A DNA stretch of 63,938 nucleotides, counting the filler, from an uncultured Methanosarcinales archaeon (lineage in GTDB: Archaea; Nanobdellota; Nanobdellia; Woesearchaeales; CAYSVS01), in NCBI GenBank assembly GCA_964434475.1. It is 3 parts of 3 records of this genome, joined end to end, with 100 filler letters (N's around TTAATTAATTAA, not from the genome) between each part and the next. Parts side by side here need not be neighbours in the genome. Positions count along the whole stretch, not along the records: positions 26,610 to 51,337 come from CAYSVS010000016.1; 2 more parts are not named here. One strand, 5' to 3'. Each line of letters opens with the position of its first letter. Position 1 is the first letter of the stretch. This document shows positions 33,001 through 39,000 of the stretch, one piece after another. The position numbers were made by a program.

Positions 33001-36000
33001 TTGTGTTCCTTTTCATAATCATTCAACAACTGCTTCACTGTCCACCTATAGCTTTTGCCAGCATACTTGCATTTACTTTCATCAAACGCAAAATTTTTTA
33101 ATTTTGCATACAATAAAATCTCTTCTTCTTTCAAAAAATACAAAGGCTTTACTCTTTGTGTAAAAAATTTAGCAAATTTTTTTAAACCTGTCATAGGTCC
33201 TAGCCTGGGCAATAAACTAGGATTGCCCCTGAACAGATTGACCAGTATTGCCTGGCATTCATCATCAAGATTATGACCAGTGACTATCTTATCATAACCT
33301 TTTGAATATTTATTCAGCAGAGATCTCCTCAATGTCCCGCATATATGGCAGGAATTGAATTTTTGCTTTACATACATTATCTTATCCATATCTTTGCCAA
33401 ACTCTTTCTCAAAACTTATTATCTTAAGTTTGATATTATTGTCTTTACAAAATTTTTTAAGATGACCTATAGCTACATCCCTGCTCCCTTCAATACCTTC
33501 ATCTATCACAATAGCATCAACATTTCCAAAGAGCTTTTTAACGATATGCATCACTACCAAGCTATCCTTTCCACCTGAAGCTGCTATAACTATCTTGTCA
33601 TCCGTAGACAAAAGACCATATTTACTTATAGTATCATTTACCTTATTCTCAAAATATTCTATAAAATGCTCTCTGCACAATTCATTATAAAAAACGCTTT
33701 CATCACATAATTTACACTTCATAAATCTTTAAAAATATGGTTTATTTTTAAATGTTTATGGATATATTGACATTAGAAGAGAGGACAGAGATATTTGAAG
33801 AAAATAAAATATATTTGGATAGTACTAATTCTCAAGTTTAGAAAACATATCACAACTTAAGCGATAAATATATGATGGGCGCCCTCAAAGAAATGCGTGA
33901 TGAAATAAGGAATGAACAATAATAATTTTTATTGTATTCTTTAAACGCAGGTAAATAACCAAATGCTTTATTTAACAATAAAAGTATCAAGAATTCTTAG
34001 TATTTCATCTTTATAAGAAGATAAAGGAATCAACAAAAAATGGAGAGTTAAAGGTTTTTTGGATTTAAAATGGATATAAACCATATTATTTTTAATTTTA
34101 TAACCTTCGAAATTAGTCCAATACATCATATTTGATATAGCTAAAGGTCCGGAAATCTTTATTCCTTCATCACTGAACTCATACGTTAATTTCATCAGAA
34201 AAAAATAAATTATAAGAAAAATAAACATTGCCAAGCCTACAAATGAAATGGAATATAAAGAAAAGAAAATACCTGAAAAGATAACAAAGACAGGGAACAA
34301 AAAATATAACAATAATAATACTTTAGGAATGGTTTCGTAAAACCGGCAACCATACTTTAAATAAACAACTCTTTCCTTTAGATATTGTTTCATAAAAACA
34401 ATATAAATTAAGGATATTTAAAATGTTTGGTTAAAGCGAACTAATTTTTAGTTGTTTTGCAGTTCATCCAACTTTTTTTCAATTTCTTCCTTTGTCATAC
34501 CGACCAAAGGTCTAAACTCTACTAATCCTATATCTAATTGCTCAACTTCATCTAAAGTTTGTCCAACAACAACTGCGTTAATTTTATGTTTTTCAGCAAT
34601 TTCTTTAATCTCTTTTTTGTTAGATATTTTTATGTTCTCTAACTTTGCCCCGCAAGAATATTTTTCTAAAACATCATATGCAATATTTCCTAGATTCAAC
34701 AAAACAACAGGACACCCTCTTTTCATCATAAGAAACGCAGCATATATGTCTTTCCTGTCTTCAAGCAGACAAAGCAATTTTCCTGCGCTTCCTAAAGGCA
34801 ATCCTCCAACAGCTTTCTTTTTTTCTGAAAAAACATATGCTTTATCCTTGACTATCTCTATGCATATTTCTTTATCAAAATTTTTAAGGTTAACCTTTGC
34901 TTTTGTTTTCTCAACAACATAAGCTCCAATCTCTCTGTCAATTTCCATAGACGTTTTTTTATGGCCTTTATTGCTTCTTTGTGTTGTTACCCTAAATTTT
35001 GTTTTTTCGTCAAAATCACATATTACGTGAGAAACAGTTTGTTTTATAGATTCAATATCTGAATCGCAAACCTTTGCATAACTATAGCTGACAATTCCAA
35101 ATATATTTTTTATTTCATCAAATTTTTCATCAGTATAAACGAACAATCTTCCATGACTTTTTACTATCTTATCAAAAGAAATATTATTTTTTTTCAGGCA
35201 TTGCTTGACATTATCTTTCAGAATATCCTCAAATATTTTTCTGTTTCCACCTTTTAACGCTATCTCTCCGTATCTAACAATTATCATTTTCTTTTCTTGT
35301 AGTCTTCAATCGCTTTTCTTAACGCATCTATGGAAAGATTAGAGCAATGAAGCTTCAGCGAAGGCAATCCTCCTAATTCATCAGAAATATCCTTGTTAGT
35401 CATCCTTTCTATCTCTGTTAGAGTCCTTCCCTTGACCATCTCGGTCATCTTTGAGCTTGTAGCGATTGCGGCAACACACCCGAACGTCTTTACCTTGATA
35501 TCTTTTATGTATTCTTTGCCTTCCTCATTTTTCTCTACTTTGATAAAAACTTCCATCACATCTCCGCAATTATGTAAAATAAATGCCTCTGAGATAAATG
35601 ATTTGGTTTTATTGACTTCAAGGTTGTGGACTGTTCCATTATATTTTATCTTTTTAACCGAAGATAAAGGCATAAAAAGATAATTTTTATCAAACCAAGA
35701 GTCGATTGATTTTCTTTTTGCTGATTTAAATTTAATCTTCAATATATCTGCTAATTTTTTAAGAGACTCCCTGTGACCTATATGAATTCTATATGCTTCT
35801 TTATGAAAAAGACCTTTTCTTTCTTTTGCAGCTTCTACATAAATTGAAGGCACTATTTTTTGTCTAATTAGTAATATTTTAATCTGTTGACAAAGTCTTC
35901 TAGATATAGTTGCATATCCCGCACGAGATTTATTTATATTAAAAAAACCATCTCCTTTCCAAAGACCATAGATTAAGCTTTTCTGTTTCTCAGGAGGAAG

Positions 36001-39000
36001 TAACATAAAAAAATAAGGAATAGATTTGTTTTTAGCGCCATTATCAAATAATTCTTTAAAAAGACGCGCTATCCAAACATTATATATGTGTACTGCGACG
36101 ACATTGCTATTTGTTCTGAACTCTTTCTTACCATTAATACCAAATAAATGTTTTACAATATAAAGTACGTCATCTGCAAGATGATTCTCGTTGATATTAA
36201 ATGAAAAAGTCAGATAAGTTTTACAGGTTTTAAGCCTTATGCTGCCTTCAGCCAAATAATAACCAGATAATCTTAAAAATTTTGCATTAATAGGGATCTT
36301 TTTAGGTATAGATATACTCTTGAAATCCCATTTTTTTTTAACATTGTTATAGTAAATATAATCCTTATCTTCAATTATTTTTAGAATAGGATATAATACA
36401 ACATCATTTTTTTCTAAATCATAAGCATGATACCATGCTGACAGCAATTCTTTTTTATTCTTGATTCTAGCAAATTTATCTTTTTTAGGAACTTTGACAG
36501 CTAAAACCATATGCTCAGGGGTTAAAAGAATGTTTCCTAACTTATTTTTAAATTCTATCAAAGAACCATAATATTTTCTTTTTGATATATTTTCAACAGC
36601 ACTGTATTTGCCATTACAGTCTAGGACCTTGTGATTTCTGGTTATTTCTTCAATAGGCAATAAAGCACCCTCTAAATGTATATTAAAACCCTTTGCAATG
36701 CATGTAGGATTTCCTACCCTGCCTATGCCGTTAGCATCTTCCAGCTTCCCCATATTTTTAGGATTCTTAAATTGATCTATCACTTTTTCATTGTACATTA
36801 AAAATCACCTTGTGATTTTTGATTCTTAAAACTTTCTTTAGTTTTAAATATCATAAAACATGCTAAAAACAACTTATTTTCGATTATCTTTGATTTTTTG
36901 CGCATTATTTCACCAGCGGACTTATCTTTCTAAGTTTGTCTACAATATCCTTAACTTTTTTGATAGTGTAATCTATCTGTTTTTTTGTAATGTATTTGCT
37001 CAAGGTAAATCTTATGCTTCCGTGCGCATCTTCTATCTTTTGGCCTAATGCCAACAGCACATAACTAGGTTCTAATGTTTTACTCGAGCAAGCGCTTCCC
37101 GTGCTTACACTTATCCCTTCAAGATCAAGATGCATAAGCAAGCTTTCCCCTTCAACATGTTTAAAAGAGATATTGACATTATTGCATAACCTTTTTTCTA
37201 TTGAACCATTGAGTATAGTATAGGGAATCTTCAACAATCCTTCAATTAAATAATCCCTCAACTTCTGCATCTCTTGAACATATTTATTGTCAGCTATCTC
37301 AACAGCTTTTGCCATACCAACTATTCCTGGAACATTTTCTGTTCCTGCTCTCAATTTAAATTCATGGCTTCCGCCTGTGTTTTGAGATAACATTTTTGTT
37401 CCTTGTTTAATGTATAAAAATCCCGCCCCCTTAGGTCCGTGTATCTTGTGGCTTGATGCAGACAACAAACAAATATTCATATTTTCAACATCAATATCAA
37501 ATTTAGTATAACTTTGAACAGCGTCAGTATGCAATGCAATATTATTTTCTTCACAAACCTTTCCTATATTTTCTATGTCCTGTATTGTTCCTATGACATT
37601 GTTTCCGTGTATTATAGAAACGAGAATCGTTTTCTTTGTTATTGATTTTTTCAATTGCTCTATATCGACAAAACCATCTTCATCAACATCAAGATAAGTT
37701 ACTTCAAAACCTTGCTTCTCTAATTCCTTGCAAGTATTCAAAACAGCAGGATGTTCAATTCTTGTAGTGATAATATGGTTGCCTTTGTCCTTGTTCGCAA
37801 AAGCATAACCTCTTATGGCAAAATTATCGCTTTCGGTTCCGCCAGAAGTAAACACTATCTCTCCTGAATTAGCTCCTATGGAATCTGCTATTATTTTCCT
37901 AGCTTCCTCTACTGCTTCTCTTGCCTCCCTTCCATAAGAGTGCAAACTAGATGCATTGCCATATTGCTCATAAAAATAAGGCAGCATAACTTCAATAACT
38001 TCTTTTGCAACCTTTGTTGTCGCACCGTTGTCTAAGTAAATTTTCATTTAAAACCACCTATACAATTTTTCATCTATAACACGCATTACAATCTTCATCT
38101 ATAACACTGCAAAACTGCATATGGTACTTGCACAAACTTTTATCCTGTTTAATATTTTCGCATATATCATGTATCTCTTTCATAGTATCTGCATTATCTT
38201 CAACTATACGCTTAGCCGCTGCTTTTATATCTTTTTTTATTTTTTCGTTAAACTCTATATCATTGGCTCTTTTGTTCTTTACATATTGAGTAACAGCTGC
38301 TCTTGAAACGTTTAGTTTTTCTGCTATCTCAGATTGGCTGATGCCTAATTGCAGCATCTGCTTGCTTAGTTCTGCTCTTATTGCTGGCAGAACATACCAT
38401 ACTTCAATTTCCTGGGGCATAATTTTCATAATATCACCTGATTTCTTTATGTTAACTATAGTAAACAAGATATATTTAAATGTTGGGGTTATTTATTAAT
38501 TTAAATGGATAAAAAAATAGCATTATTGTTGTTAAGTCAAGGAATAGATAGTCCTGTTGCCGGGCATATGATAAAAAAGCAAGGAATAGAGATTGAAGCC
38601 ATACATTTTGATACAGGAAATTCTATAGACACGATCAAAGAATTGTGTGCAAAAACAAAAATAAAAAAACTATACCTGATAAAATACAGTAAAGTATTGA
38701 AACAAATTTCTAAAATATGTAAAAAGGATTTGACTTGTGTACTGTGTAAAAGAACTATGCTGAAGATTGTTGAAAGATTGGCACAAAAAAAAAATATCAG
38801 CTATTTGATAACTGGGGATAATATAGCGCAAGTTGCAAGCCAGACAGTAGAAAACATGATAGCCATAAGATCCAATATAAATATGCCCATACTTAGTCCC
38901 TTATTGGGTTTTGATAAGCAAGAGATAATAGATATCGCAAAAAAAATAGAAACATATGAAATAAGTACGCAGAATGTTTCTAAGTGCTCTTTTGTACCTC

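What a model noticed while it worked through the whole genome (the two positions that open the first line are those of the whole stretch)
35284..36798. Mobile LAGLIDADG intein splits the Fe-S scaffold IscU at its first cluster-ligand cysteine
The only Fe-S scaffold gene found in this genome (IscU, g00600, 504 aa, downstream of iscS) is interrupted by a 378-residue intein with a LAGLIDADG homing-endonuclease domain. The intein sits between VGNPT and CGDVMEV, so its +1 nucleophile is the first conserved cluster-binding cysteine of IscU; Cys1, the TPEH block, terminal HN and Cys+1 are intact. The allele is sporadic in Woesearchaeales but shared at about 50% identity over the full length with other DPANN phyla and with CPR bacteria, which points to spread of the intein-bearing gene across domains.
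Evidence so far: pfam.tsv: NifU_N 1-33 and 409-504 flank LAGLIDADG_3 273-352; NifU_N occurs on g00600 only and there is no SufB/SUFBD row. Sequence: ...GRVGNPT/CIAKGF...LLTPEHMVL...FILHN/CGDVMEVFI. Residues 411-500 are 56% identical to A. fulgidus IscU 33-117; residues 26-411 match the MJ0043 intein region. gtdb.tsv: the 10 best hits are 505-553 aa and full length: 3 Woesearchaeales, 2 Pacearchaeales, 1 SCGC-AAA011-G17, 1 Iainarchaeota, 3 Patescibacteria, 48-54% identical. In 60 other sampled Woesearchaeales genomes the C-extein matches ORFs of 127-153 aa in 22 genomes and an ORF of 521 aa in one. g00602 is IscS.
(Added by a program. Inside this text positions count along the whole contig: they may not be those of the stretch shown here. 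"Call 12" and the like, gene names such as g00115 and contig names such as C1 are that model's own, and its searches are not shown. The text may have been shortened before it was handed on; [...] marks where a part breaks off. The agent that wrote the report below was given it as the finding of a first reader that could run no searches.)

Follow-up and report, generated by a model that had tools for sequence, protein, structure and literature searches.

The report
Homing intein inside the IscU gene
The only iron-sulfur scaffold gene found in this small archaeal genome is interrupted by a self-splicing, mobile protein element that must cut itself out before the scaffold can work. It is an intact example of a widespread but apparently undescribed intein family found in both archaea and ultra-small bacteria.

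Summary
ORF 35284-36798 (-) encodes a 504-aa IscU precursor. Residues 1-32 and 411-504 are IscU, and residues 33-410 are a 378-aa intein carrying a two-motif LAGLIDADG endonuclease. All splicing residues are present (Cys1, TPEH, His-Asn, Cys+1). Cys+1 aligns with the first cluster-ligand cysteine of solved IscU structures. The 97%-complete genome shows no other NifU_N gene, no SufB/D and one IscS, so splicing is probably obligatory (inferred).

This is not a rarity. At least 411 protein clusters and 101 species genomes carry the same intein at the same site. Hosts include DPANN, Asgard, Thermoplasmata, Methanomethylicota and Patescibacteria. Within lineages it is sporadic: 5 of about 172 IscU-bearing genomes of the window's order, 3 of 140 in a Patescibacteria class.

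The window's extein is sister to an intein-less allele of the same genus. Here, therefore, the intein moved into or out of a native gene, and the whole gene was not imported. Cross-domain movement of the intein is supported: an AU test rejects one bacterial clade, and the key contigs have archaeal or bacterial flanks. The endonuclease part is under purifying selection.

Verdict: a new member of a known kind. No paper describing an IscU intein was found. Splicing and cleavage remain untested.

The parts
36703..36798 (-). N-extein of IscU (residues 1-32, ending Gly-Asn-Pro-Thr). A Shine-Dalgarno-like AGGTGA lies 7 nt upstream of the ATG.
   Evidence: Aligns to A. fulgidus IscU 1-32; NifU_N profile positions 1-34; upstream sequence read.
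35569..36702 (-). Intein, residues 33-410 (378 aa): a Hint splicing domain split by a LAGLIDADG endonuclease domain.
   Evidence: Pfam LAGLIDADG_3 and Intein_splicing. AlphaFold2 model of the precursor has pLDDT 90.7. Best Foldseek matches are the TliVMA intein 7qsu (E 5e-23), PI-SceI and PI-PfuI. Intein length was 372-384 aa in the 74 loci measured.
36700..36702 (-). Cys1 of the intein (residue 33), the nucleophile of the first splicing step.
   Evidence: Cys in 120 of 120 homologues.
36511..36522 (-). Block B, Thr-Pro-Glu-His (residues 93-96).
   Evidence: Thr93 and His96 are present in 120 of 120.
36244..36276 (-). First LAGLIDADG motif (residues 175-185), with catalytic Glu184.
   Evidence: Gly179 in 120/120 and Glu184 in 119/120. 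Helix 172-184 in the model. Fold match to I-DmoI.
35944..35976 (-). Second LAGLIDADG motif (residues 275-285), with catalytic Asp283.
   Evidence: Trp280, Gly282, Asp283 and Gly284 in 120/120. Helix 269-283 in the model.
35569..35643 (-). Blocks F and G (residues 386-410), ending His409-Asn410.
   Evidence: His409 and Asn410 in 120/120; Asn392 in 120/120.
35287..35568 (-). C-extein of IscU (residues 411-504). Cys411 is both the +1 nucleophile and the first cluster ligand. Asp413, Cys441 and Cys485 are the other ligand positions. The stop codon is 35284-35286.
   Evidence: Aligns to IscU 33-120 of 4eb5_C and 37-124 of 128-aa IscU chains. Cys411, Asp413, Cys441 and Cys485 are present in 120/120. 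Foldseek to 4eb5_C gives rmsd 1.2 over 93 columns.
36905..38047 (-). Cysteine desulfurase (NifS/IscS type), directly upstream in the same orientation. It is the sulfur donor of the scaffold.
   Evidence: Aminotran_5 at 289 bits. NCBIfam FeS_nifS at 514 bits, cut-off 530.75. It is the only strong Aminotran_5 match in the genome.
38070..38468 (-). Small helix-turn-helix protein with a cysteine-rich C-terminus, upstream of the desulfurase. Possible regulator of the cluster (inferred).
   Evidence: HTH_3 and HTH_24 matches. It is 35% identical (E 4e-25) to the ORF in the same position upstream of IscS in L013.

Best explanation
The gene encodes a precursor of the archaeal two-gene (IscS-IscU, 'MIS'-type) iron-sulfur scaffold, carrying a class-1 intein with a LAGLIDADG homing endonuclease.

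After translation the intein should remove itself by the standard four steps. Cys33 attacks the Thr32-Cys33 bond, helped by Thr93 and His96. Cys411 takes over the N-extein. Asn410 cyclises with help from His409 and releases the intein. An S-to-N shift then leaves a normal peptide bond. The product is a roughly 126-aa IscU whose first ligand cysteine is the former +1 residue.

Until that happens the ligand set is split by 378 residues, so the precursor should not build clusters. No other scaffold was detected and the genome encodes many Fe-S enzymes, so efficient splicing is probably essential.

At the DNA level the endonuclease would cut intein-less iscU at the conserved Val-Gly-Asn-Pro-x-Cys-Gly-Asp coding site, and repair would copy the intein in. 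The site is conserved in both domains, so the element can move between archaea and Patescibacteria.

What is shown: the anatomy, the conservation, the distribution and the tree conflicts. What is inferred: splicing, DNA cleavage and essentiality.
For: Anatomy and motifs.

Conservation:
- Splicing residues and Asp283 are present in 120/120 relatives, and Glu184 in 119/120.
- The window copy departs from the family at only 4 of 93 highly conserved intein columns, all conservative changes.

Fold: the model has pLDDT 90.7 and matches solved endonuclease-bearing inteins, I-DmoI and IscU.

Selection: the endonuclease part has dN/dS 0.07-0.25 in the 11 of 12 close pairs that could be computed.

Distribution: sporadic. 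Long frames occur in 6 of the 150 rows listed for 301 genomes of the order, including the window. They occur in 4 of 145 rows for 301 Patescibacteria genomes, including the centre genome.

Native extein: it is sister to the same-genus intein-less allele, SH-aLRT 98.

Conflict between intein and host:
- A starred (98) clade mixes 9 bacterial inteins with 2 from archaeal contigs.
- Those contigs carry fibrillarin and Nop, while the bacterial ones carry Rrf2 and MnmA.
- The AU test rejects a single bacterial clade (delta lnL 196, p 4.9e-8).

Target site: conserved at first and second codon positions in 20 archaeal and 19 bacterial intein-less alleles.

Dependence on this gene: no second NifU_N, no SUFBD, one IscS, and 17 radical-SAM matches.
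Against: - No experiment was done: neither splicing nor DNA cleavage was observed.
- The Pfam Intein_splicing score (35.3) is just under its cut-off (35.8).
- The window's intein sits on a long end branch (0.72 against a median of 0.24) with no close relative, so there is no sign of a recent invasion in this lineage.
- Extein flanks differ from the same-genus allele at many synonymous sites (30/45 and 33/45 identical), so no co-conversion tract is visible.
- The composition contrast (intein GC3 0.21, extein 0.42) does not indicate recent arrival. The same sign is seen in 70 of 77 loci.
- The trees are 'quick' searches, and the extein tree has only 129 columns with many open forks.
- The groups for the AU test were chosen after the tree had been seen.
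- The genome is 97% complete, so a second scaffold on unassembled DNA cannot be excluded.
- The position that I recall as a conserved Asp in block F of class-1 inteins is Asn in all 120 sequences. What this means for splicing is unknown.
Confidence: 0.85

Rival explanations
1. The whole intein-bearing iscU gene, extein plus intein, was imported into this genome from another phylum or domain.
For: Full-length matches of 48-60% identity occur in other phyla and in Patescibacteria. Whole-gene transfer looks likely for another pair, L013 and L062: both their extein and their intein nest among Patescibacteria.
Against: The window's extein is sister to the intein-less allele of a same-genus genome (SH-aLRT 98, 75% identity over 125 columns). 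Its best extein identity to any intein-bearing relative is 64%.
Confidence: 0.07
2. The splicing domain works but the endonuclease is no longer active. The intein would then be a fixed, vertically inherited passenger in this lineage and no longer mobile.
For: The end branch is long and no close relative was sampled. No intein-less joint appeared in the one run that holds this DNA, but those are contigs and probably the source sample, so this says little.
Against: Both catalytic acidic residues and the surrounding motifs are intact. The family's endonuclease part shows dN/dS of 0.07-0.25. No endonuclease-free mini-intein was seen: all 74 measured inteins are 372-384 aa. Six mid-length relatives that were inspected are intein-less proteins with extra tails.
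Confidence: 0.15
3. The insert is a dead relic: it does not splice and the gene is a pseudogene, with Fe-S clusters obtained by another route or from a host.
For: DPANN archaea have reduced genomes and may depend on hosts (general knowledge). Splicing is untested.
Against: The frame is open over 504 codons. Every catalytic residue of the intein and all four ligand positions of IscU are kept. The gene sits in an intact cluster with IscS. The genome has 17 radical-SAM matches that need clusters.
Confidence: 0.04
4. Assembly or binning artefact: a chimeric contig joins an intein from elsewhere to iscU.
For: The genome is a 148-contig metagenome bin.
Against: A 9-kb contig of a public run covers the whole stretch with no differences, although it may be the source sample. 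The same in-frame architecture occurs in the best 120 homologues and in 101 species genomes.
Confidence: 0.01

Closest known systems
SufB intein of Mycobacterium tuberculosis
   Same: An intein interrupts the scaffold of the organism's main Fe-S assembly system, so cluster supply depends on protein splicing. Published work treats its splicing as stress-sensitive. What I saw: the abstract start of PMC8891592 in the listing; the Topilina 2015 title in the reference list of PMC4760082; and SufB listed as an intein host in supplement file 2 of PMC4760082.
   Different: The scaffold family differs (SufB against IscU/NifU_N), and so do the hosts (Actinobacteria and Chloroflexi in that survey). In the window the +1 nucleophile is itself a cluster ligand. 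No sequence comparison with the SufB intein was made here.
Endonuclease-bearing VMA inteins (TliVMA 7qsu/7qss, PhoVMA 7qst, PI-SceI 1vde/1lws) and PI-PfuI 1dq3
   Same: The predicted architecture is the same: a Hint splicing domain with an inserted two-motif LAGLIDADG endonuclease. Foldseek gives E 5e-23 to 2.5e-15. phmmer to 7qsu gives E 3e-7 over residues 138-350.
   Different: Only 12-21% identical. The host proteins and insertion sites differ (ATPase, ribonucleotide reductase).
Related inteins in other genes of the same kinds of metagenomic organisms (2-oxoacid:ferredoxin oxidoreductase beta, thioredoxin-reductase-like, ferredoxin, ribosomal S19, UDP-glucose dehydrogenase and others)
   Same: These are the nearest sequence relatives outside IscU, for example P0134 at 41% identity over the whole intein. 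Size and motifs are the same.
   Different: The exteins and target sites differ. The IscU set forms the top of the hit list at 45-49% identity, ahead of these.
IscU of Archaeoglobus fulgidus (4eb5) and of a methanogen (7c8m), the two-gene archaeal IscS-IscU system
   Same: The exteins are 54% identical to 4eb5_C over 93 columns at rmsd 1.2, and the ligand positions are kept. The gene is adjacent to IscS. The 'MIS' name comes from the abstract of PMC12192291, seen only in the listing.
   Different: Those proteins are uninterrupted.
MJ0043 intein of Methanocaldococcus jannaschii
   Same: Not tested here.
   Different: Not tested here. The sequence could not be obtained from a tool.

Membership tests
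Intein (class 1 protein-splicing element) | In-frame insert in a conserved host protein whose two flanks together make a continuous homologue | tested here: met
   Residues 1-32 plus 411-504 align end to end with IscU 1-120 of 4eb5_C. All 39 intein-less relatives are gapped over exactly these columns.
Intein (class 1 protein-splicing element) | Cys/Ser at position 1; block B Thr-x-x-His; C-terminal His-Asn; Cys/Ser/Thr at +1 | tested here: met
   Cys33, Thr93, His96, His409, Asn410 and Cys411 are each present in 120/120 relatives.
Intein (class 1 protein-splicing element) | Hint fold | tested here: met
   Predicted model only (pLDDT 90.7). Foldseek matches solved inteins at E down to 5e-23. 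The Pfam Intein_splicing score is 35.3, under its 35.8 cut-off.
Intein (class 1 protein-splicing element) | Block F acidic residue (recalled from memory as a conserved Asp) | tested here: inconclusive
   The aligned position appears to be Asn392, in 120/120 sequences. The equivalence rests on my recall of the motif and not on a tool alignment.
Intein (class 1 protein-splicing element) | Splicing demonstrated | not testable with these tools
   Needs expression and mass analysis.
LAGLIDADG homing endonuclease (single-chain, two motifs) | Two LAGLIDADG helices, each ending in an acidic catalytic residue | tested here: met
   Motifs at 175-185 (Glu184) and 275-285 (Asp283). Pfam LAGLIDADG_3 scores 50 bits with two stretches. 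Helices 172-184 and 269-283 are in the model. Fold match to I-DmoI with TM 0.72-0.74 on the target.
LAGLIDADG homing endonuclease (single-chain, two motifs) | Cuts the insert-free allele at the insertion site | not testable with these tools
   Indirect evidence only: sporadic distribution, intein/extein tree conflict, and dN/dS of 0.07-0.25.
IscU / NifU_N Fe-S scaffold | Three Cys and one Asp ligand positions; family profile above cut-off | tested here: met
   Cys411, Asp413, Cys441 and Cys485 are kept. Pfam NifU_N scores 125 bits against a cut-off of 22.
IscU / NifU_N Fe-S scaffold | NCBIfam equivalog score (NifU_clost TIGR03419 or iscU TIGR01999) | tested here: not met
   152.6 bits against cut-off 187.9, and 118.4 against 192.4. 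These were scored on the unspliced precursor, where the intein splits the match. The spliced form was not scored.
IscU / NifU_N Fe-S scaffold | Encoded beside its cysteine desulfurase | tested here: met
   IscS/NifS lies at 36905-38047, 106 bases upstream on the same strand.
Already catalogued intein allele (same host protein and site) | Listed in an intein catalogue or paper | tested here: not met
   No paper on an IscU or NifU intein turned up in full-text searches. The 2015 survey PMC4760082 has no IscU or NifU in its text or in supplement file 2; file 1 could not be searched. InBase could not be consulted.

The most novel reading that the evidence does not exclude
Splicing at the ligand cysteine acts as a post-translational switch on the cell's only Fe-S scaffold. 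The +1 nucleophile is the residue that later binds the cluster. Oxidation, persulfidation, or metal binding at Cys1/Cys+1 would therefore hold the precursor unspliced. Scaffold supply would then follow redox or sulfur/iron status, and that benefit would help keep the element in genome-reduced symbionts of both domains.
Probability: 0.12. Interest if true: 0.7.

Novelty: new member of a known kind. Interest (0 to 1): 0.4.

Why it matters
Inteins in Fe-S assembly have so far been discussed for SufB. Here the other ancient scaffold, IscU, carries one at a ligand cysteine, in organisms where it can be the only scaffold. Fe-S supply therefore depends on protein splicing.

The family is abundant in public data but goes unremarked. 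It causes annotation errors: one IscU-intein protein is named as an oxidoreductase subunit.

The target site is conserved in both domains, and the intein tree mixes archaeal and Patescibacteria hosts. The element is therefore a usable marker of DNA exchange between ultra-small bacteria and archaea that share habitats.

It also offers a natural Cys1/Cys+1 intein for testing redox- or metal-conditional splicing.

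Tried and rejected
- Public reads. One run (X1, possibly the source sample) holds the stretch in a single identical contig. X2 and X3 hold next to nothing. No joint skipping the intein was seen and no RNA holder was listed. 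Contigs cannot show rare intein-less alleles, so nothing follows from this.
- Viral vector. A scan of viral contigs gave 202 relatives, of which 80 were kept, all at 21-36% identity. None of the 80 holds an IscU C-extein (phmmer). No viral carrier of this allele was found.
- Composition as a sign of recent arrival. The intein has GC3 0.21 and the extein 0.42, near the 11th and 96th percentiles of 824 long ORFs. The same direction holds in 70 of 77 loci, so I dropped it as evidence for this genome.
- Mini-inteins at this site. Six relatives with frames of 170-225 aa were read, and all are intein-less NifU-type proteins with added tails.
- Co-conversion tract. The flanks differ from the same-genus allele at many synonymous sites, which is uninformative.
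- Record titles as taxonomy. Several 'TPA_asm' labels are wrong. L009 and L062, labelled 'Methanosarcinales', are the same contigs as genomes of the window's order. I therefore used only submitter labels, genome handles and flank checks in the AU test.
- Not used: complex prediction, the protein atlas and the RNA tools.
- The MJ0043 comparison was left out for want of a tool-supplied sequence.

Full report
**What is there**

The window is three contigs joined by runs of N. The finding lies on the second (26610-51337), which is archaeal: a TATA-box-binding protein is encoded at 39311-39895.

ORF 35284-36798 on the minus strand encodes 504 residues.
- Pfam finds NifU_N at both ends (1-33 and 409-504; 125 bits), LAGLIDADG_3 in the middle, and Intein_splicing at 35.3 bits, just under its 35.8 cut-off.
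- Against solved structures, residues 1-33 align with residues 1-33 of A. fulgidus IscU. Residues 411-503 align with its residues 33-120, and with residues 37-124 of 128-aa IscU chains.
- The insert is therefore residues 33-410 (378 aa; window 35569-36702).
- It starts with Cys, has Thr-Pro-Glu-His at 93-96, ends His-Asn, and is followed by Cys411.
- Cys411 occupies the position of the first cluster-ligand cysteine of IscU. That this position is a ligand is established knowledge of IscU, recalled and not computed here.

**Is it intact?**

- In an alignment of the best 120 homologues, Cys1, Thr93, His96, His409, Asn410, Cys+1, the second endonuclease aspartate (Asp283) and the IscU ligand positions (Asp413, Cys441, Cys485) are present in 120 of 120. 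The first endonuclease glutamate (Glu184) is present in 119 of 120.
- The window copy departs from the family at 6 of 131 columns that are at least 90% conserved. Four of the six lie in the intein, and all four are conservative changes.
- An AlphaFold2 model of the whole precursor, built with a 36-sequence alignment, has mean pLDDT 90.7 and pTM 0.81.
- Foldseek matches that model to endonuclease-bearing inteins (TliVMA 7qsu at E 5e-23, then PI-SceI and PI-PfuI), to I-DmoI for the endonuclease part, and to IscU for the C-extein at rmsd 1.2.

**Dependence of the cell on this gene**

The assembly has 1.50 Mb in 148 contigs and is 96.95% complete.
- NifU_N matches only this gene.
- SUFBD_core gives nothing, while the control genomes all ring.
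- There is one IscS-type desulfurase, encoded 106 bases upstream.
- No A-type carrier was found.
- There are 17 radical-SAM matches.

The inference that splicing is obligatory rests on these absences in an incomplete genome.

No other intein was found in the genome. Intein_splicing matches only here, and LAGLIDADG_3 matches here plus one weak free-standing ORF on contig 3.

**How common is it?**

- The word-indexed search gave 411 protein clusters at E <= 1e-5 among the 8000 candidates scored. The best 120 are 498-562 aa, all carry NifU_N plus LAGLIDADG_3, and all have the His-Asn/Cys-Gly-Asp junction. The highest identity to the window is 60%.
- A scan of one genome per species found 101 relatives, of which 80 were kept.
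- By submitter labels these come from Woese-, Pace-, Iain-, Aenigm- and Micrarchaeota; from Asgard lineages (Borr-, Sif-, Atabeyarchaeum and a Promethearchaeati MAG); and from Thermoplasmata, Methanomassiliicoccales, Methanomethylicota and a Methanomicrobia MAG. Patescibacteria hosts include Nealson-, Gribaldo- and Parcubacteria.
- A second NifU-type subfamily with a long N-terminus carries the intein at the same site (L060, L069, L078, L086, L092; L134 read).
- Intein length is 372-384 aa in the 74 loci where my pattern found both junctions. Eleven of 85 loci were missed, either because of a variant residue before the cysteine or because the contig was cut.

Within lineages it is rare.
- In 301 genomes of the window's order, including the window, 173 have a C-extein match. 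Of the 150 rows listed (32 weaker rows were not shown), six have frames of 500 aa or more: G000, G266, G264, G293, G240 and G093. The rest are mostly 120-160 aa. That tally includes eight genomes flagged as unpublished, and none of them is intein-bearing.
- One same-genus genome (G155) has an uninterrupted 127-aa gene. Another (G032) gave no match.
- In 301 genomes of a Patescibacteria class, 141 match, and four have long frames: the centre G301, plus G512, G545 and G601. All four were confirmed as intein-bearing.

**History**

I aligned 116 proteins: 77 intein-bearing, including the window, and 39 intein-less. Five duplicates and six fragments were dropped.

On the extein columns (129 kept, quick search, many open forks):
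- The window is sister to the same-genus intein-less allele (SH-aLRT 98; 75% identity).
- The presence or absence of the intein needs at least 17 changes on this tree.

On the intein columns (380 kept):
- The window sits alone on a long end branch (0.72 against a median of 0.24), with at most 52% identity to any species representative. Against any cluster the best is 59%.
- So in this lineage the host gene is native, and the intein was either gained from an unsampled donor or lost in the sister. I cannot tell which.

**Cross-domain movement**

- A starred clade (98) of 11 inteins holds nine Patescibacteria and two Woesearchaeales sequences, L013 and L062.
- The two archaeal contigs carry fibrillarin and Nop next to the cluster. 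The bacterial contigs carry Rrf2 and MnmA. Binning error is therefore unlikely for these.
- The exteins of L013 and L062 also nest among Patescibacteria (supports of 85-91), which suggests a whole-gene move there.
- The opposite pattern also occurs. L020, L023 and L085 have exteins among intein-less Patescibacteria; the clade has support 94, and a starred (96) sub-clade holds L023 and L085. Their inteins nest among archaeal ones with supports of 92-93, which suggests an intein-only move.
- Holding nine well-labelled bacterial inteins as one clade against 47 archaeal ones costs 196 log-likelihood units (p-AU 4.9e-8). The groups were fixed after the tree had been seen.
- One apparent cross-domain case is a labelling error: the 'Falkowbacteria' contig L057 has NurA, PTH2 and Hjc.

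**Signs of an active element**

- The endonuclease part has dN/dS of 0.07-0.25 in the 11 of 12 close pairs that could be computed.
- In 7 of the 10 pairs where both values could be computed, synonymous divergence of the intein is lower than that of its exteins. For L013/L062 the values are 0.23 against 1.19. This would be expected if inteins moved after the hosts split. It is only a hint, because the extein estimate rests on 118 codons.
- The coding site for Val-Gly-Asn-Pro-x-Cys-Gly-Asp-x-Met is conserved at first and second codon positions in both archaeal (n=20) and bacterial (n=19) intein-less alleles.

**Relatives of the intein**

A full HMMER search of 1.84 billion representatives with the intein gave 5004 hits at E <= 1e-3.
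- The top entries, at 45-49% identity, are IscU-sized with the intein starting near residue 37.
- Below them, at 41% or less, are inteins in other host proteins. These include 2-oxoacid:ferredoxin oxidoreductase beta, thioredoxin-reductase-like proteins, a ferredoxin, ribosomal protein S19, sugar-nucleotide enzymes, primase and a terminase (40 of the 150 listed hits were scanned).

**Literature**

- Full-text searches found nothing on this element. The term sets were: intein with IscU; intein with NifU; intein(s) with Candidate Phyla Radiation, Patescibacteria, Woesearchaeota or DPANN; and a general intein-survey query.
- The 2015 survey PMC4760082 mentions neither IscU nor NifU in its text or in supplement file 2, and lists SufB. 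Supplement file 1 could not be searched.
- For the SufB precedent I saw only abstracts in listings and a reference entry.
- The 'MIS' name for the two-gene IscS-IscU system comes from an abstract seen in a listing.
- Intein catalogues could not be consulted.

**Verdict**

This is a real, intact, endonuclease-bearing class-1 intein at a previously undescribed host protein and site. It belongs to a large family that moves within and between domains. It is a new member of a known kind and of moderate interest. Its value lies in three things: it makes the sole Fe-S scaffold depend on splicing, it is a marker of exchange between ultra-small bacteria and archaea, and it is a candidate for conditional splicing, which remains speculative.

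Noticed in passing
window 34448-35287 (-) and 38505-39131 (+): ThiI appears split into two genes flanking the IscS-IscU pair. A 279-aa protein has the ferredoxin-like and THUMP domains plus only the first ~41 profile positions of the PP-loop domain. A separate 208-aa protein is the PP-loop domain alone. They match TIGR00342 positions 1-207 and 175-368 respectively. The first gene overlaps the iscU stop by 4 bases.
   Followed up: partly
window 38070-38468 (-); L013:2401-2769: A 132-aa helix-turn-helix protein with a cysteine-rich C-terminus sits upstream of IscS. An ORF in the same position in a distant Woesearchaeales contig is 35% identical (E 4e-25). NCBIfam finds no family for it. It may be an Fe-S-sensing regulator that takes the place of the Rrf2/IscR seen in the Patescibacteria loci.
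   Followed up: partly
window 32841-33722 (-): A TtuA/NcsA-type tRNA 2-thiolation PP-loop protein lies in the same neighbourhood (NCBIfam 216 bits, under the cut-off of 450). The region is a sulfur-trafficking cluster.
   Followed up: no
G000 contig 3, L135:504-1397 (+): A free-standing 297-aa ORF gives a weak LAGLIDADG_3 match (20.3 bits, under the cut-off) and no NCBIfam hit. It may be a stand-alone homing-endonuclease-like gene.
   Followed up: partly
P0061; L057, L009, L062: Annotation errors in public records. One IscU-intein protein is named '2-oxoglutarate ferredoxin oxidoreductase subunit beta', probably through intein similarity. A 'Falkowbacteria' contig has archaeal flanks. Two contigs titled 'Methanosarcinales' belong to genomes of the window's order.
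   Followed up: partly
intein residue 392 (window 35623-35625): At the block F position where I recall a conserved Asp in class-1 inteins, this family has Asn in 120 of 120 sequences. The equivalence is from memory and was not checked against a reference alignment.
   Followed up: no
77 intein-bearing loci (L007-L086): The intein is poorer in G+C at third codon positions than its own exteins in 70 of 77 loci (mean difference 0.125), although both are translated from one mRNA. In 7 of 10 close pairs the intein's synonymous divergence is lower than the exteins'.
   Followed up: partly
P0130, P0166, P0169, P0182 and others: Some representatives matched by the intein are giant proteins (3000-4900 aa) with 3-7 separate matching stretches. 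These are proteins with several related inteins, and their hosts were not examined.
   Followed up: no
L013:5696-7376: The Woesearchaeales contig with the Patescibacteria-like IscU-intein also encodes a SufC-like ABC ATPase and a SUFBD_core protein just downstream. That genome therefore has a second scaffold system, unlike the window's genome.
   Followed up: no
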